This document shows, piece after piece, positions 47,398 through 52,782 of a stretch of DNA of 64,000 nucleotides. Position numbers and translations under genes: made by a program. The notes beneath the pieces were generated by a model that saw only the letters and a program-made list of their open reading frames with translations, was not told the DNA's origin and did no database searches. The first letter of the stretch is position 1. Each line of letters opens with the position of its first letter. Source of the DNA: Escherichia phage Baret. The DNA is taken from the sequence record OR896834.1. The stretch is one strand, 5' to 3'.

Positions 47398-47595
47398 TTA
47401 GACGCTTAAAATACTTCTAATCTCTTCTATATACTTACCTACTTTTTTAGCATCTACTTTACTTAGTTTTCCTATATCAAAATCAGGATCAGTAAACATT
47501 CTAGCTATCTCTATCTCTAGAGACTTACTAATTTTCCCGGTAGTATTCCACTTAGAAATCTTACCTTTTATTTTCCAAAATTCCTTATTCATCAT
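47398..47595 (-). CDS. hypothetical small protein
   Basis: 65-aa ORF, Lys-rich. Confidence 0.4.
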   Translation of the reverse strand: MMNKEFWKIKGKISKWNTTGKISKSLEIEIARMFTDPDFDIGKLSKVDAKKVGKYIEEIRSILSV

Positions 47596-47977
47596 TTAGG
47601 CCTGGAACATAAATCCCAACACGGTTTAATTGTTCTTTAGCTTCTTTGAGAATATCTGGAGTGTACTCCCAAATATCATCTTCTACCTGTAAAAGATGGG
47701 GCGAACAACCGTCATCAGGCACACGACATATGGCCAAACCACGTGGATGGAATATAGAGAAGTTTAGGGCAACAATTAAACCCATAGCAGACAATTCATT
47801 CCAATCCAATTCCCATTCCCTAGCGTAGCCTGATAGGAAAACACCAACACAGGGATCATCTATTTGCTGCTCTGGAAAAGTGAAGGAGGCTTGTCTTACC
47901 CCCAACCAACGTTGTAGCAGCTTCTCAGCACGCTTCACCAAACTAGGATCAATCTGACGCCAATATACTTGTTCCAT
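47585..47977 (-). CDS. hypothetical protein, tandem paralog of 47987-48415
   Basis: 130 aa; shared pattern (PC[IV]G...MGL[IV].ALN...F.P...L.V.....W.Y.P...PGL) with neighbour; AAGGAGG RBS. Confidence 0.55.
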   Translation of the reverse strand: MEQVYWRQIDPSLVKRAEKLLQRWLGVRQASFTFPEQQIDDPCVGVFLSGYAREWELDWNELSAMGLIVALNFSIFHPRGLAICRVPDDGCSPHLLQVEDDIWEYTPDILKEAKEQLNRVGIYVPGLNDE

Positions 47978-47986
47978 TCTGCCTCC

Positions 47987-48415
47987 TTAAGCAGTTAAAC
48001 CTGGGATCATATACCCGAAATGGCGAAGTTTCTGAATCCCCTCATTCACTTCTTCCGGTGAGTAAGACCAACCATAACGTTCATTAACCTGAAAACCAGG
48101 AGATTCACTAGTTTTATAGTTAACAACTAGGCGATGCTTAGCAGGCATAAACAGCTTATAGTTTAACGCAAAAACTAAGCCCATTTCGTCTAACTCTTTC
48201 CAGCCCACAATCTCTTCAAGACCATCCTCTACCTGCACAATTAAACCAATACAGGGGGCCTCATCAATATCATCCTTAAAAGCAAAGGAGATTTCGTTAT
48301 TCTCACACCATATTTTCAAAGAGTTAATAGCCTCATTATACAGGCTAGCTGGGAGAGTACGCCAAAAGTTAACCAAAATTGGGTTAGCTTCTTTAGAGAA
48401 TACATTATTGAACAT
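47987..48415 (-). CDS. hypothetical protein, tandem paralog of 47585-47977
   Basis: 142 aa; see paralog. Confidence 0.55.
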   Translation of the reverse strand: MFNNVFSKEANPILVNFWRTLPASLYNEAINSLKIWCENNEISFAFKDDIDEAPCIGLIVQVEDGLEEIVGWKELDEMGLVFALNYKLFMPAKHRLVVNYKTSESPGFQVNERYGWSYSPEEVNEGIQKLRHFGYMIPGLTA

Positions 48416-48417
48416 AT

Positions 48418-48924
48418 TTACACCTTAAATTGTTGTAAGGATTTACACATTTCAATATCTGGGCTAAATTCTAGCATATAGCTAACAGCTTTTAAATCTT
48501 GAAGATTTATCCCAGTCCTACCGTTGACTATAACCGTTGGATACTGATACATCATAGCACCAGCATCATCAAGCACACACCAATGTTTGAGCTTATGCTT
48601 TTCAACGAAACGGAGAACAGAATTACCTCTAGATAGCCCACCCCCAGTAAAATCAGTTGTACCAAGAAAACGATCGATAAGACCTAATCCGGTCATAATC
48701 TGAACGTTCTCCATCTCATTCCTGACAGAGAACCATGAGGATACTCCAACAATCATTATCGGAGAAGGACGAATAAAATCCTGAAAAGCCTTGAGAAGCG
48801 GTTTGAAAACCCAGTCACTTCCAAAGAAAATCTTTTCATTATCAGGTGCATGATGATGGGAGATGCTCGAATTGAGCACCCCATCAATGTCTAGAAAAAT
48901 AATTGGAGTATTACTTATTTCCAT
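48418..48924 (-). CDS. HAD-superfamily hydrolase (putative phosphatase/nucleotidase)
   Basis: motif I FLDIDGVLN near N-terminus and C-terminal VLDDAG (DD motif). Confidence 0.55.
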   Translation of the reverse strand: MEISNTPIIFLDIDGVLNSSISHHHAPDNEKIFFGSDWVFKPLLKAFQDFIRPSPIMIVGVSSWFSVRNEMENVQIMTGLGLIDRFLGTTDFTGGGLSRGNSVLRFVEKHKLKHWCVLDDAGAMMYQYPTVIVNGRTGINLQDLKAVSYMLEFSPDIEMCKSLQQFKV

Positions 48925-49093
48925 TTTTGTTCCTTTCTAAGAACGTATCATACTCAACCGTATCAACATATATAACACCATAGTCATCAGATTTATAGTC
49001 CATTTCCCACAGCTCACAACGATAGCACCAACTACCGTCCGCCCATACAAATATATCATCAGGGTGTGTATACACAGATTTAATTATGGACAT
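48911..49093 (-). CDS. hypothetical small protein
   Basis: 60-aa ORF, ATG start. Confidence 0.35.
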   Translation of the reverse strand: MSIIKSVYTHPDDIFVWADGSWCYRCELWEMDYKSDDYGVIYVDTVEYDTFLERNKNGNK

Positions 49094-49908
49094 ATTTGTT
49101 TCCCCGGCACATAAGGTCTACCCTCTAAATGGGCTTCTACACGAGCGATAAAATCAGGGTCATTGAAAGCATCTACCGCACCTTTACTCCAGTAAGAGAT
49201 ACCACGTTCTTCCAGCTGGTACATCTCACTACGAGTCATACCTTGATAGCCAGGTTCCGCTGCGAGGGCACTATCATAGTAGTTAACAACCATAAGTTTC
49301 GCAGCAGTCAAATTAAGAACAGGAAATAATTCCCAGTAGAAGTTAATTACTTGGTTAGAGCAACCAACCACAATGATCATATCTTGACTGGTAATACCAT
49401 CAAAAATATTGTACATTTCTGCATACGCTGGAGCATGCTCCCCAAAGAAGATTACATTAGGTTTAACCCATTTATAATCATCTGGATCAATAGAAGTGTA
49501 CCCTACATCAATAATCCGTTTATTGCTACTATTGTAGCTATCAGCTACAACAACCTCTTTTAAATATCCGTGAATGTGCAGAATGTCACTATGTGGAACG
49601 CCAGCACGCTCAATAAGGTCATCAACGTTGGTAGTCAAGTTTACTACCTGACCTGGATATTGTTTATACCATTCACCAATACGCAAATGTGCAAGATTGG
49701 GTTCAACAGTTTTTAGCTCTTCACGACGTTTGTTGTAAAACATATGGGTTTTATGGTAAAAATTACCACGAAAGGCATGAATATTACATACTTCTTCTAG
49801 ATCATAATCATCCCACAGTGCTTTACCACTAGCAGTATCAGTACGAAAAGCTCGTACACCACTTTCAACACTCAAACCCGCACCGCTAATAATAATTAAT
49901 CTACGCAT
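49084..49908 (-). CDS. Sir2-like (sirtuin-fold) protein lacking the zinc-ribbon module
   Basis: GAGLSVESGVRAFR (cf. sirtuin GAGIS..SGIP.FR), HG motif, FFGE motif, VVGCSNQV (cf. GTSL.V); no Cys4 cluster; ATG 49908 with AGGTGG RBS (ORF-track start is TTG). Confidence 0.55.
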   Translation of the reverse strand: MRRLIIISGAGLSVESGVRAFRTDTASGKALWDDYDLEEVCNIHAFRGNFYHKTHMFYNKRREELKTVEPNLAHLRIGEWYKQYPGQVVNLTTNVDDLIERAGVPHSDILHIHGYLKEVVVADSYNSSNKRIIDVGYTSIDPDDYKWVKPNVIFFGEHAPAYAEMYNIFDGITSQDMIIVVGCSNQVINFYWELFPVLNLTAAKLMVVNYYDSALAAEPGYQGMTRSEMYQLEERGISYWSKGAVDAFNDPDFIARVEAHLEGRPYVPGKQICP

Positions 49909-50122
49909 TTTCCACCTGTTCTCTGAAGTTTTGCCCAATACTGTCTAATAGCTCAGCTAATTCTTTATTGCCTTTCTCCATTAAGGTATTAGCAATAACT
50001 TCTAGCATATTAGCGCAGGATTCAACACCATCCTTATAGCCAGTTTCCCAATACTGCATTAATGCGTTTTCCAAAGCGGCATTTAAACCCTTATCTGGTA
50101 GCATCGGCTTCGAGAATGCCAT
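49901..50122 (-). CDS. hypothetical small protein
   Basis: 73-aa ORF. Confidence 0.35.
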   Translation of the reverse strand: MAFSKPMLPDKGLNAALENALMQYWETGYKDGVESCANMLEVIANTLMEKGNKELAELLDSIGQNFREQVENA

Positions 50123-50297
50123 AAAGTTTCTCCTCTAGTTCCATAACACGATTTTCATAAGAAGCACGCAACTTTTCAATTGCCAGCGCACGCACTGTAA
50201 CCTCATTAGAATTAATAGCTAACTGGGCTAGGTCTTCTGTTTCCATACGTCCGTTGTAAATTAAGCGATATTTAAGGTGTTTCACATTCTTAGTCAT
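50091..50297 (-). CDS. hypothetical small protein
   Basis: 68 aa from ATG 50297 with GGAG RBS. Confidence 0.35.
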   Translation of the reverse strand: MTKNVKHLKYRLIYNGRMETEDLAQLAINSNEVTVRALAIEKLRASYENRVMELEEKLYGILEADATR

Positions 50298-50670
50298 TAT
50301 TAAACTCCACTGCAACTGTTTCTAGGTCTTCATCAGAAAAACTAGAGTATACATCTTTAAGATATTGTTTAATACTCCAAGTAATATCTTCGTACCCATG
50401 GGGGCTACGTTGGTACACTTTTAGCACTCTATTATACACAAATTCAAGATTACATTTTACTTCATCTCTGTCTTCATCAAACAAGCAATATGGATTATAA
50501 GGTGATACATCTAGATTTGTTCCCACCCAATCGCCAATAATTGATGAATATCCAATACCCTCTAGATGGGAATAATCTCCAGTAGATGCAAAAATAGCTT
50601 CTCTAAGATCGTCTACGCCAAGATGGAAACTACCACATGTAGACTCAACTATATAGGGCTTTAATTCCAT
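50290..50670 (-). CDS. hypothetical protein
   Basis: 126 aa; GGAGAAAGG RBS; downstream of promoter 50699-50727. Confidence 0.45.
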   Translation of the reverse strand: MELKPYIVESTCGSFHLGVDDLREAIFASTGDYSHLEGIGYSSIIGDWVGTNLDVSPYNPYCLFDEDRDEVKCNLEFVYNRVLKVYQRSPHGYEDITWSIKQYLKDVYSSFSDEDLETVAVEFNND

Positions 50671-50732: not shown

Positions 50733-50769
50733 ATAAAAGCCAGGTCGACTAGCAACCCGGCTGATTAGC
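50733..50769 (-). terminator. rho-independent terminator after nrdD (minus strand)
   Basis: GCCGGG-11nt-CCTGGC hairpin followed on minus strand by TTTTATTTTATTT. Confidence 0.5.
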
Positions 50770-52673: not shown

Positions 52674-52702
52674 ATTATAACTCATTCGAGGGCGGATGTC
52701 AA
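52674..52702 (-). promoter_or_regulatory. consensus sigma70 promoter (TTGACA-17-TATAAT) for nrdD
   Basis: minus-strand -35 at 52697-52702, -10 at 52674-52679; AAGGAGAG RBS and ATG 52644 follow. Confidence 0.7.
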
Positions 52703-52753: not shown

Positions 52754-52782
52754 TTGCCAATCTCTATTAAAAATTGTATAAT
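52754..52782 (+). promoter_or_regulatory. sigma70-type promoter (TTGCCA-17-TATAAT)
   Basis: -35 52754-52759, -10 52777-52782, AT-rich upstream. Confidence 0.55.

What the first reader, a model, noticed from the sequence alone, without database searches (positions are those of the whole stretch)
49084..49908. Phage-encoded Sir2-like protein without the zinc-ribbon module
The ORF carries the sirtuin NAD-binding signature (GAGLSVESGVRAFR), an HG motif, FFGE and a GTSL-like VVGCSNQV segment, but no Cys4 zinc ribbon. Sir2-fold domains are best known as NAD-consuming effectors in bacterial anti-phage systems (Thoeris ThsA, DSR, SIR2-HerA). A phage-borne copy in an early block of small genes could be an NAD-metabolism hijacker, a decoy or counter-defence factor, or an ADP-ribosyltransferase.
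Basis: partly seen in the sequence, partly recalled or inferred. Interest (0 to 1): 0.55.

Follow-up and report, generated by a model that had tools for sequence, protein, structure and literature searches.

The report
T5-type phage sirtuin lacking zinc ligands
This is the well-known, widely annotated Sir2/CobB-like gene of T5-like phages: a true sirtuin that has lost its zinc-binding cysteines, sits next to a phosphatase of an RNA-repair family, and has no biochemical function reported in any paper I could find.

Summary

It is a genuine sirtuin:
- Pfam SIR2, E = 1e-24.
- AlphaFold model with pLDDT 90; best fold matches are E. coli CobB, Sir2Af1 and SIRT5.
- It does not match defence-type SIR2 models (no PADLOC hit).

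The window is a T5-like phage. The gene occurs in 977 of 50,697 phage records and is routinely annotated "Sir2 NAD-dependent deacetylase". It is under strong purifying selection (dN/dS 0.06-0.16).

The zinc module is kept in shape but has no ligands. This loss tends to go with a Q-to-T change in the QNxD motif.

Zinc-ligand loss in phage sirtuins was described in 2016. The pairing seen here, a sirtuin with a "Swiss-army-knife" HAD phosphatase, was described in 2022 with a T5-like phage as its type example. That paper predicted Tpt1/KptA-like removal of RNA 2'-phosphates. I reproduced the context evidence:
- HAD_SAK_2 lies 151 bp downstream in this window.
- In V5-like phages the orthologue sits in an Rnl1-cREC-kinase-sirtuin operon.

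Caveats: T5-like phages encode no RNA ligase, the protein is acidic, and the acyl-lysine pocket is intact. Ordinary lysine deacylation therefore remains a close rival. No biochemical test was found. The feature is already known; interest is low to moderate.

The parts
49084..49908 (-). Sirtuin gene (274 aa), a phage-specific zinc-ligand-less clade derived from class III (CobB/SIRT5-like) sirtuins
   Evidence: Pfam SIR2 E = 1e-24. PHROG 2162 E = 1e-120. AF2 pLDDT 90.2. Foldseek top hits are CobB 1s5p/6rx*. dN/dS 0.06-0.16.
49843..49884 (-). NAD-binding motif GAGLSVESGVRAFR (residues 9-22)
   Evidence: G9, A10, G11, S13, S16, G17, F21 and R22 are invariant in 78 homologues. The motif aligns to GAGISAESGIRTFR of CobB.
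49726..49737 (-). Class III sirtuin Y-x-x-R motif (Y58, R61), the anion-binding pair of the acyl pocket
   Evidence: Y58, R61 and R62 are invariant. The motif aligns to FYNARR of CobB. That this pair binds the succinyl carboxylate in SIRT5/CobB is from my own knowledge.
49621..49635 (-). TTNVD motif (residues 92-96), replacing the canonical TQN(I/V)D; the Gln is lost while Asn and Asp are kept
   Evidence: Present in 114 of 120 homologues. T93, N94, V95 and D96 are invariant. Zinc-bearing sister sequences keep TQN.
49567..49578 (-). HIHG with catalytic His113
   Evidence: H113 and G114 are invariant. His is present in 142 of 142 family representatives. The motif aligns to HMHG of CobB.
49465..49566 (-). 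Degenerate zinc-ribbon module (residues 115-148): three predicted strands, a conserved DVGY motif, no Cys
   Evidence: The alignment with CxxC...CxxC relatives L064, L065 and L068-L070 shows the same module with ligands replaced. Predicted strands are 114-122, 131-134 and 147-152.
49438..49449 (-). FFGE (residues 154-157), the substrate-tunnel loop
   Evidence: F154, F155 and E157 are invariant. G156 varies (H/E/C/R in some members).
49348..49371 (-). VVGCSNQV (residues 180-187), equivalent to the GTS NAD-phosphate-binding loop
   Evidence: G182, S184 and V187 are invariant. The segment aligns to AIGTSGHV of CobB.
48911..49093 (-). 60-aa ORF between the sirtuin and the phosphatase. Its start overlaps the sirtuin's end by 10 nt, and its end overlaps the HAD gene's start by 14 nt.
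   Evidence: PHROG 5116, unknown function. Present in most T5-like loci.
48418..48924 (-). HAD_SAK_2 phosphatase (168 aa), the conserved partner of the sirtuin in T5-like phages
   Evidence: Pfam PF18143 E = 7e-20. All four HAD motifs are invariant. AF2 pLDDT 94.8. Nearest folds are capless HADs: MDP-1, Scp1, UBLCP1. It lies within 0-442 bp of the sirtuin in 28 T5-like loci and 2.4 kb away in L062.
49901..50122 (-). 73-aa ORF upstream; its end overlaps the sirtuin ATG by 8 nt, consistent with translational coupling in one early transcription unit
   Evidence: PHROG 5827, unknown function.

Best explanation
The gene encodes an active NAD+-consuming sirtuin. It belongs to a phage-only clade descended from class III (CobB/SIRT5-like) sirtuins that has lost its zinc ligands. 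It is expressed in the T5 early block together with the translationally coupled HAD_SAK_2 phosphatase.

Most likely role: the pair is a small RNA-end-cleaning module that helps the phage cope with RNA (tRNA) cut by host metal-independent nucleases. In this model the sirtuin works like Tpt1/KptA, in two steps:
1. An RNA 2'-phosphate oxygen attacks C1'' of NAD+ and nicotinamide leaves.
2. The His113-activated ribose 2''-OH attacks the phosphate. [quoted passage not shown]

The HAD enzyme would remove a terminal RNA phosphate or dephosphorylate the ADP-ribose phosphate by-product.

Shown here: sirtuin fold, a near-complete NAD pocket (the Gln of QNxD is replaced by Thr93), catalytic His, purifying selection, and the conserved gene context. 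Inferred: that the enzyme is active, the RNA substrate, and the two-step chemistry.
For: (1) Catalytic competence.
- GAGxS, F21/R22, N94, D96, H113, FFxE and GxS are invariant across 78 homologues.
- dN/dS is 0.06-0.16.
- The model is confident and superposes on CobB.

(2) Context. I examined three kinds of phage genome, and in two of them the sirtuin lies next to RNA-end-processing genes, with unrelated partner sets.
- HAD_SAK_2 lies on the same strand within 0-442 bp in 28 T5-like loci and 2.4 kb away in one more (L062). These include T5-sized genomes and sirtuins only 52% identical. In Erwinia phage KEY the gene order is inverted.
- In V5-like phages the 56-63% identical orthologue sits in a tight Rnl1-cREC-kinase-sirtuin-DNA ligase operon, with a Metallophos gene nearby.

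(3) This is the published prediction for this clade. T5-like phage SP15 (94% nt identity to the window) is its type example (PMC9503650 sect. 3.7.3).

(4) Chemistry (inference). Sirtuin catalysis and Tpt1 catalysis share a logic: an O-nucleophile attacks NAD+ C1', then the ribose 2'-OH attacks to give a 1',2'-cyclic species. The invariant Y58/R61/R62 pocket could bind an anion.

(5) Substrate-binding elements that form the peptide beta-staple are altered. VxP becomes V-I-N, and the Gly of FGE is not conserved.

(6) The partner HAD is a capless type whose nearest folds act on macromolecules.
Against: - T5-like genomes encode no RNA ligase, 5'-kinase or cREC (whole-genome scan of fp01). The pathway would therefore need host enzymes.
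- The third kind of genome examined, Phapecoctavirus-like (~150 kb), keeps the cREC-Metallophos-Rnl1-kinase cluster without the sirtuin, which lies about 30 kb away beside a DNA-methyltransferase-like gene.
- The family is acidic (median pI 5.2, net charge -12) and has no extra nucleic-acid-binding domain. By my recollection, Tpt1 enzymes are basic.
- The acyl-lysine pocket residues of CobB are all conserved or conservatively replaced: A76>C41, Y92>Y58, R95>R61, I131>V95, V187>V152, F190>F155, H147>H113. The CobB numbering rests partly on PMC5107563 and on PDB entry titles.
- T4-type Pnkp/Rnl1 repair leaves no 2'-phosphate (my knowledge).
- Gene adjacency in tightly packed phage genomes is weaker evidence than in bacteria.
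- No biochemical test of any phage sirtuin was found.
Confidence: 0.37

Rival explanations
1. It is an ordinary NAD+-dependent protein lysine deacylase (deacetylase or desuccinylase, CobB/SIRT5-like). The phage would use it to strip acyl groups from host or phage proteins, for example adenylate-forming enzymes or ligases, or basic nucleic-acid-binding proteins. The HAD neighbour would then be a protein phosphatase, so the pair would erase post-translational modifications.
For: - The closest relatives by sequence and by fold are all deacylases: CobB, Sir2Af1, SIRT5, Sir2Tm. NCBIfam's best hits are CobB-type deacylase models.
- The catalytic residues, the hydrophobic acyl-lysine tunnel and the class III Y-x-x-R pair are invariant.
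- Acidic pI is typical of cellular sirtuins.
- The zinc site is structural, not catalytic (my knowledge).
- The nearest folds of the HAD partner include protein phosphatases such as Scp1, UBLCP1 and MDP-1.
- This is the function proposed in PMC5107563 for the Vibrio-phage homologues.
Against: - Scores lie far below every curated CobB cut-off: 100 bits against 243, and 89 against 320.
- The Gln of QNxD, the Pro of VxP and the Gly of FGE are lost or variable.
- The recurrent linkage to RNA-repair genes in two of the three kinds of phage genome examined is unexplained by this model.
- The host already has CobB.
Confidence: 0.3
2. It acts on small NAD+/ADP-ribose metabolites as part of the phage's NAD economy or counter-defence. 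It might process NAD+ or ADP-ribose derivatives, with the HAD enzyme dephosphorylating an ADP-ribose phosphate. This would be analogous to the Macro-domain phosphatase Adpp that extends the NARP1 NAD+-rebuilding pathway.
For: - HAD_SAK_2 homologues (37-39% identical) lie directly upstream of Prs-like and NAPRTase-like genes in ~150-kb phages. That gene pair is NARP1 (Adps/Namat), validated in the BASEL phage Bas63 (10.1101/2024.02.11.579819).
- NARP1 operons are known to recruit an accessory ADPR-1''P phosphatase (10.64898/2026.01.28.702374).
- The sirtuin lies 4.4-5.8 kb from NARP1-like genes and a NADAR gene in V5-like phages. It lies 2-4 kb from Nampt and NMNAT/Nudix genes in jumbo phage 7t3.
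Against: - The NAD-salvage genes are several kb away and often on the other strand.
- T5-like phages have no NARP genes near the sirtuin.
- A sirtuin consumes NAD+, which is odd for a phage that also depends on an NAD+-dependent DNA ligase.
- No small-molecule sirtuin reaction of this kind is known apart from CobB's weak phosphoribosyl transfer (my knowledge; PMC9503650).
- Capless HADs usually take macromolecular substrates (my knowledge).
Confidence: 0.13
3. It is a protein (or DNA) mono-ADP-ribosyltransferase that modifies host machinery, like SirTM or SIRT4/6-type activities. Alternatively it is a plain NADase that shuts down host metabolism.
For: - Zinc-less sirtuins that have been characterised (SirTM, defence SIR2) are ADP-ribosyltransferases or NADases (my knowledge; PMC9503650).
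- The changed QNxD motif could alter the fate of the ADP-ribosyl intermediate (inference).
Against: - No Macro-domain partner among the eight neighbouring genes.
- The catalytic His is retained. By my recollection, SirTM lacks it.
- No similarity to defence SIR2 models.
- NAD+ destruction would starve the phage's own NAD+-dependent ligase.
Confidence: 0.1
4. It is a catalytically dead decoy that binds or sequesters a host factor or an NAD-derived immune signal.
For: Loss of the zinc ligands and of the conserved Gln.
Against: - Every other catalytic and NAD-contacting residue is invariant across lineages only 50% identical.
- His is present in 142 of 142 representatives.
- dN/dS is about 0.1.
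Confidence: 0.03

Closest known systems
Phage 'RNA-repair' sirtuin clade of Iyer, Burroughs, Anantharaman & Aravind 2022 (PMC9503650, sect. 3.7.3), neighbourhood type 3 (Escherichia phage SP15: sirtuin + Swiss-army-knife HAD phosphatase)
   Same: It is the same gene. SP15 matches the window region at 94.4% nt identity over 100% of the query. The sirtuin-HAD_SAK_2 pairing is present. The type-2 neighbourhood (tRNA ligase, cREC, kinase, calcineurin-like phosphoesterase) is reproduced in V5-like orthologues.
   Different: Nothing structural differs. I add the following:
- T5-like genomes lack a ligase, kinase and cREC.
- Another group of large phages (Phapecoctavirus-like) separates the sirtuin from its RNA-repair cluster.
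- The clade is acidic with an intact acyl-lysine pocket.
The predicted Tpt1-like function is therefore less secure than the paper implies.
E. coli CobB (PDB 1s5p, 6rxj) and class III sirtuins (SIRT5, Sir2Af1)
   Same: - Same fold: Foldseek E = 6e-17, target-normalised TM 0.82-0.84.
- About 25% identity.
- Shared features: GAGxS, the GIRxFR-type loop, the Y-x-x-R pair, N-x-D, catalytic His, FGE-type loop and GxS loop.
   Different: - No zinc ligands.
- Gln of QNxD replaced by Thr; GTS replaced by GCS; VxP replaced by V-I-N.
- An invariant Cys41 at CobB position A76.
- A C-terminal extension of about 60 residues.
- Scores far below the NCBIfam CobB cut-offs.
- Found only in phages: the best cellular match in 185,579 species genomes is 43% identical over residues 1-188.
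Sir2/CobB of Vibrio 'schizoT4-like' phages (KVP40, phiSt2, phiGrn1; PMC5107563)
   Same: These are phage sirtuins modelled on CobB, reported to lack the zinc ligand. That paper lists T5 as carrying a homologue. Related Vibrio-phage sequences are 35-41% identical and also Cys-less.
   Different: - The Vibrio-phage proteins carry T-A-N-V-S instead of T-T-N-V-D.
- They sit between thymidylate synthase and topoisomerase genes, without a HAD_SAK_2 neighbour.
- That paper proposes activation of acetyl-CoA synthetase by deacetylation.
Tpt1/KptA RNA 2'-phosphotransferase
   Same: A proposed functional analogy only: NAD+-dependent, placed in RNA-repair gene contexts, and sharing a two-step ADP-ribosyl/cyclisation chemistry (PMC9503650; PMC11417386 abstract).
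   Different: An unrelated fold and family. The only Pfam hit here is SIR2. No activity data exist.
Defence-associated SIR2 NADases (ThsA, DSR1/2, SIR2-HerA, SIR2-APAZ) and SirTM
   Same: Sir2-type Rossmann fold using NAD+; these also lack the Cys4 zinc ribbon (my knowledge).
   Different: - No PADLOC hit.
- Pfam assigns it to SIR2 (PF02146) only.
- No sensor or effector domains and no Macro partner.
- The nearest structures are deacylases, not ThsA or DSR2.

Membership tests
Sirtuin family (Pfam PF02146 SIR2) | Profile match above the curated gathering score | tested here: met
   87.9 bits against a cut-off of 24, E = 1e-24, profile positions 1-178 of 180.
Sirtuin family (Pfam PF02146 SIR2) | Sirtuin fold: Rossmann domain plus a small domain | tested here: met
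   AF2 pLDDT 90.2, pTM 0.88. Foldseek against PDB: CobB, Sir2Af1, SIRT5 and Sir2Tm, probability 1.00, target-normalised TM up to 0.84.
Sirtuin family (Pfam PF02146 SIR2) | NAD-binding GAGxS motif and catalytic His in the HG motif | tested here: met
   G9-A10-G11-x-S13 and H113-G114 are invariant. His is present in 142 of 142 representatives.
Sirtuin family (Pfam PF02146 SIR2) | Q-N-x-D motif of the nicotinamide-ribose pocket | tested here: inconclusive
   N94 and D96 are invariant, but the Gln is replaced by Thr93 in 114 of 120 homologues.
Sirtuin family (Pfam PF02146 SIR2) | Cys4 zinc ribbon in the small domain | tested here: not met
   No Cys between H113 and K149. No CxxC in 120 homologues. 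Zinc-bearing sister sequences align over the same module. This feature is typical but not universal among sirtuins.
Sirtuin family (Pfam PF02146 SIR2) | NAD+-dependent deacylase or ADP-ribosyl transfer activity | not testable with these tools
   Needs an enzyme assay. No published assay was found.
CobB equivalog (NCBIfam NF040867 / NF001753) | Score above the curated equivalog or subfamily cut-off | tested here: not met
   89.4 bits against 320, and 99.8 bits against 243.
Class III sirtuins (SIRT5/CobB type) | Y-x-x-R pair in the acyl pocket | tested here: met
   Y58 and R61 are invariant and align to FYNARR of CobB. That the motif defines class III is from my own knowledge.
Phage RNA-repair sirtuin clade, type 3 (PMC9503650) | Sirtuin of the phage clade encoded next to a SAK-type HAD phosphatase | tested here: met
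   HAD_SAK_2 (PF18143, E = 7e-20) lies 151 bp downstream on the same strand. Type phage SP15 is 94.4% identical in DNA.
Phage RNA-repair sirtuin clade, type 3 (PMC9503650) | Removal of RNA 2'-phosphate (the function proposed for the clade) | not testable with these tools
   A prediction only. See the decisive next steps.
Defence-associated SIR2 (ThsA, DSR, SIR2-HerA, SIR2-APAZ) | Match to defence SIR2 models, or fused or adjacent sensor/partner domains | tested here: not met
   No PADLOC hit at E <= 0.01. It is a single-domain protein. The neighbours are a HAD enzyme and small unknown proteins.
SirTM (Macro-linked ADP-ribosylating sirtuins) | Operon partner with a Macro domain | tested here: not met
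   None of the eight flanking ORFs has a Macro domain.
Tpt1/KptA (PF01885) | Homology to the RNA 2'-phosphotransferase family | tested here: not met
   The only Pfam hit at E <= 1 is SIR2. Any resemblance would be functional, not familial.

The most novel reading that the evidence does not exclude
The phage sirtuin clade could be the first sirtuin whose substrate is nucleic acid. It would be a Tpt1-analogous RNA 2'-phosphotransferase, or a related RNA-phosphate ADP-ribosylase. The HAD_SAK_2 partner would clear the phosphorylated RNA end or the ADP-ribose phosphate by-product, letting T5-like and V5-like phages undo damage from host RNA-cutting defences. The joint loss of the zinc ligands and of the QNxD glutamine would mark this change of substrate.
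Probability: 0.3. Interest if true: 0.75.

Novelty: already known. Interest (0 to 1): 0.3.

Why it matters
The gene is common: 977 of 50,697 deposited phage genomes carry it, including T5 and many therapeutic T5-like and V5-like phages. It is under strong purifying selection. Yet no paper I could find reports a biochemical or genetic test, and every database calls it a "deacetylase" by homology alone.

If it removes RNA 2'-phosphates, it would extend sirtuin chemistry to nucleic acids. It would also show a phage answer to RNA-cutting immunity. If it is a deacylase, it would show phages editing the host acyl-proteome. Either result would correct or confirm thousands of annotations.

As a discovery from this window, however, it adds little. 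The gene, its missing zinc site and its HAD partner are all in the literature.

Tried and rejected
- Defence-type SIR2: rejected. No PADLOC hit, only PF02146, and the nearest folds are deacylases.
- SirTM-type: rejected. No Macro neighbour.
- Domain fusions as clues to function: the ten longest of the best 150 family representatives carry only SIR2, plus one WG repeat. Nothing informative.
- Cellular origin or prophage copies: none closer than 43% identity in 185,579 species genomes.
- Second 'Sir2' annotation in RefSeq records: it is the HAD_SAK_2 gene, mislabelled through PHROG 18062.
- Solved relatives of the HAD protein by sequence: none. By fold, only generic capless HADs appear, not specifically polynucleotide phosphatases.
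- RNA ligase, kinase or cREC genes anywhere in a T5-like genome: none, only a distant Metallophos homologue.
- KptA-like gene replacing the sirtuin in Phapecoctavirus-like RNA-repair clusters: the gap holds only 67-106-aa ORFs, which I did not scan against any family library.
- Strict covariation of zinc loss with Q-to-T: strong but not absolute. The counts are 76 Q with Zn, 41 non-Q without Zn, 9 Q without Zn and 13 non-Q with Zn. They are not corrected for phylogeny.
- Experimental papers on phage sirtuins: five full-text searches found none.
Full report
**The observation**

Window 49084..49908 on the minus strand is an ATG-to-TAA ORF of 274 codons. It contains GAGLSVESGVRAFR (residues 9-22), HIHG (111-114), FFGE (154-157) and VVGCSNQV (180-187). 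Its only cysteines are C41, C183 and C273.

The ATG is preceded by AGGTGG and overlaps the end of the upstream 73-aa ORF by 8 nt. The stop overlaps the start of a 60-aa ORF by 10 nt. That ORF in turn overlaps the start of a 168-aa ORF by 14 nt. This is a translationally coupled run of early genes.

A perfect sigma-70 consensus promoter lies upstream of nrdD (52702-52674, minus strand). A terminator-like hairpin lies after nrdD (50762-50738), upstream of this block.

**What the protein is**

- Pfam gives one hit, SIR2 PF02146, at 87.9 bits against a cut-off of 24.
- PHROG 2162 'Sir2 (NAD-dependent deacetylase)' matches end to end, E = 1e-120.
- The best solved relatives by sequence are E. coli CobB, Sir2Af1/Af2, SIRT5 and Sir2Tm.
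- An AlphaFold2 model built on 78 homologues has mean pLDDT 90.2.
- Foldseek against the PDB returns CobB first (E = 6e-17, target-normalised TM 0.82-0.84), then Sir2Af1 and SIRT5.

The protein is also not of the anti-phage SIR2 kind:
- No PADLOC model matches.
- There are no partner domains.
- There is no Macro neighbour.

It is not a CobB equivalog either. NCBIfam CobB models score 89-100 bits against cut-offs of 243-320.

**Where it comes from**

The window is a T5-like phage (Tequintavirus). The 2.3-kb region around the gene is 95.8% identical to Escherichia phage fp01 and matches 446 phage records. By tblastn, 977 of 50,697 phage records carry the protein. Carriers include:
- T5-like phages;
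- V5-like phages;
- Phapecoctavirus and Justusliebigvirus phages;
- Salmonella phage 7-11;
- KVP40-like Vibrio phages;
- RaK2/7t3-like jumbo phages.

The gene is nearly always annotated as a Sir2 or CobB deacetylase. A 121,750-bp contig that I take to be T5 itself carries it, with the HAD gene 314 bp away.

In 185,579 species genomes the best cellular matches are 43% identical (a Bacilli MAG contig) and 37-38% identical (Rhodoblastus). Everything else is ordinary CobB-like at 32% or less. The clade is therefore phage-specific. Among T5-like phages dN/dS is 0.06-0.16.

**The zinc site**

None of 120 homologues has a CxxC motif. Sister sequences at 36-38% identity keep CxxC...CxxC and the canonical TQN(I/V/C)D. 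These are two jumbo viral contigs and three Rhodoblastus genomes.

These sisters share clade-specific motifs with the phage proteins: V-C-N after the cofactor loop, FYNxRR, an (I/V)GY motif between the Cys pairs, and KPNVVFF. They align over a module of nearly the same length. The model predicts three strands there. The module is therefore a ligand-less zinc ribbon, not a deletion.

All Cys-less members I examined have lost the Gln of QNxD:
- TTNVD here;
- TTNVD in jumbo phage 7t3;
- TANVS in Vibrio phages.

Across 142 cluster representatives of the wider family the association is strong but not absolute, and it is not corrected for phylogeny:

| | Zn site present | Zn site absent |
|---|---|---|
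| Gln kept | 76 | 9 |
| Gln lost | 13 | 41 |

Loss of the zinc ligand in phage Sir2/CobB was already reported for KVP40 and phiSt2, with T5 listed as a carrier (PMC5107563).

**Catalytic equipment**

Invariant in 78 homologues:
- G9, A10, G11, S13, S16, G17, F21, R22;
- C41;
- Y58, R61, R62;
- T93, N94, V95, D96;
- H113, G114;
- K149, P150, V152;
- F154, F155, E157;
- G182, S184, V187, F190;
- N209.

I mapped these on CobB, using the engineered-pocket positions named in PDB entries 6rxm/6rxs and the residues cited in PMC5107563. On that mapping the acyl-lysine pocket is conserved or conservatively replaced: A76>C41, Y92>Y58, R95>R61, I131>V95, V187>V152, F190>F155, H147>H113.

The elements that differ are those that clamp a peptide backbone. 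V-x-P becomes V-I-N, and the Gly of FGE is variable. The family is acidic, with median pI 5.2 and net charge -12, as are ordinary bacterial sirtuins.

**Context**

The 168-aa ORF at 48418..48924 is Pfam HAD_SAK_2, 'HAD domain in Swiss Army Knife RNA repair proteins', E = 7e-20.
- All four HAD motifs are invariant.
- The model is confident, pLDDT 94.8.
- The nearest folds are capless HADs: MDP-1, Scp1 and UBLCP1.

RefSeq records label this gene 'Sir2' because it matches PHROG 18062. That is an annotation error.

The 59 viral-contig loci with the sirtuin divide as follows:

| Context | Loci | Details |
|---|---|---|
| HAD_SAK_2 on the same strand | 29 | 28 within 0-442 bp, all T5-like, with sirtuins as low as 52% identical; one (L062) at 2.4 kb |
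| Rnl1, kinase or Metallophos (often cREC) within about 3 kb | 12 | V5-like phages; one of these contigs is short and shows only the kinase |
| Metallophos only | 3 | |
| None of these | 15 | Mostly Phapecoctavirus-like phages: DUF7277/7275, a DNA-methyltransferase-like gene, unknown genes, then the sirtuin |

Further points on context:
- Erwinia phage KEY has the inverted order HAD-p118-sirtuin.
- In Raoultella phage Ro1 the operon reads Rnl1-cREC-kinase-sirtuin-ATP DNA ligase, with gaps of 0-14 bp.
- Phapecoctavirus-like phages keep a cREC-Metallophos-Rnl1-kinase...DNA ligase cluster about 30 kb from the sirtuin. Only small ORFs occupy the sirtuin's place there.
- A full T5-like genome (fp01) has no Rnl1, kinase or cREC. 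It has only a distant Metallophos homologue.

**A second thread: NAD+ recycling**

- V5-like phages have Prs-like and NAPRTase-like genes 4.4-5.8 kb from the sirtuin, and a NADAR gene. This gene pair is NARP1 (Adps/Namat), validated in the BASEL phage Bas63 (10.1101/2024.02.11.579819).
- HAD_SAK_2 homologues sit directly upstream of that pair in ~150-kb phages.
- A 2026 preprint shows that NARP1 operons can recruit an accessory ADPR-1''P phosphatase of the Macro type (10.64898/2026.01.28.702374).
- In jumbo phage 7t3 the sirtuin lies 2-4 kb from Nampt and NMNAT/Nudix genes.

**Interpretation**

Iyer et al. 2022 described this clade and its three neighbourhood types. T5-like phage SP15 is their example of the sirtuin + SAK-HAD type. 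They proposed KptA/Tpt1-like removal of RNA 2'-phosphates (PMC9503650).

My analysis reproduces their context evidence, and the chemistry is plausible. Both sirtuins and Tpt1 use an oxygen nucleophile on NAD+ C1' followed by attack of the ribose 2'-OH (inference; Tpt1 mechanism from the abstract of PMC11417386).

Four things keep ordinary lysine deacylation a close rival:
- T5-like phages have no ligase.
- Phapecoctavirus-like phages keep the sirtuin apart from their RNA-repair cluster.
- The protein has an acidic surface.
- The acyl-lysine pocket is intact.

My estimates:
- Tpt1-like RNA-repair role: 0.37.
- Lysine deacylase: 0.30.
- NAD/ADPR small-molecule role: 0.13.
- ADP-ribosyltransferase or NADase: 0.10.
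- Decoy: 0.03.

**Verdict**

The feature is already known as a gene, as a zinc-less phage sirtuin and as a sirtuin-HAD pair. Five full-text searches found no functional test. What remains open is its substrate, and only experiments can settle that.

Noticed in passing
window 48418..48924 (-): RefSeq/Pharokka-style records annotate the HAD_SAK_2 phosphatase gene as a second 'Sir2 (NAD-dependent deacetylase)'. The cause is its match to PHROG 18062, a 92-position family covering its C-terminal half. The mislabel is repeated in many T5-like genomes.
   Followed up: yes
L147 6001-9217 and L148 6001-9569 (Serratia phage ChuuTotoro-like, ~150 kb): A HAD_SAK_2 homologue (37-39% identical) lies immediately upstream of Prs-like and NAPRTase-like genes. 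This is the domain pair of the NARP1 NAD+-rebuilding pathway. It may be a HAD-type accessory phosphatase analogous to the Macro-domain Adpp just described for NARP1. I found no report of this.
   Followed up: partly
L004 3806-8133; also L040, L045, L048, L049, L052, L053, L056: In Phapecoctavirus-like ~150-kb phages the sirtuin sits in a different conserved block. The order is a DUF7277/DUF7275 protein, a 131-aa protein, a DNA-methyltransferase-like protein (PHROG 757), two unknown proteins (one with a CxxC motif), the sirtuin, then a 90-aa protein. The RNA-repair cluster of these phages is about 30 kb away.
   Followed up: partly
L064, L065 (jumbo viral contigs of 279 and 608 kb); L068-L070 (Rhodoblastus genomes): These are zinc-bearing sister sequences of the phage sirtuin clade (36-38% identical). 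They have CxxC...CxxC and TQN(I/V/C)D but share clade motifs such as the (I/V)GY motif and, in four of the five, V-C-N. They look like the ancestral state before ligand loss.
   Followed up: partly
window 47585..48415 (-): Two tandem paralogous genes (130 and 142 aa) lie directly downstream of the HAD gene. Each carries two DUF7415 repeats (E = 9e-32 and 3e-35). They are conserved next to the sirtuin-HAD pair in almost all T5-like loci. Function unknown.
   Followed up: no
window 52674..52702 (-) and 52754..52782 (+); 50738..50762 (-): A perfect TTGACA-17-TATAAT promoter faces nrdD, and an 11/12 match faces the PhoH-like gene in the divergent intergenic region. A 10-bp-stem terminator-like hairpin follows nrdD, just upstream of the small-gene block that contains the sirtuin.
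   Followed up: no
L151 2261-2782 (fp01 gp146 'phosphoesterase'): T5-like phages carry a homologue (E = 1e-23) of the Metallophos phosphoesterase that belongs to the V5-like RNA-repair cluster. In T5-like genomes it lies far from the sirtuin, next to a NinI-like Ser/Thr phosphatase.
   Followed up: no
L153 1-5726 (Salmonella jumbo phage 7t3): The Cys-less, TTNVD-type sirtuin lies 2-4 kb downstream of nicotinamide phosphoribosyltransferase and a bifunctional NMNAT/ADP-ribose pyrophosphatase. This is a NARP2-like gene pair.
   Followed up: no
L003 7652-8008 versus window 50290..50670 (-): The 118-aa gene between the HAD and sirtuin genes in Erwinia phage KEY is homologous (PHROG 11748) to the 126-aa ORF that lies upstream of the sirtuin in the window. 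The block has therefore been rearranged rather than newly assembled.
   Followed up: no
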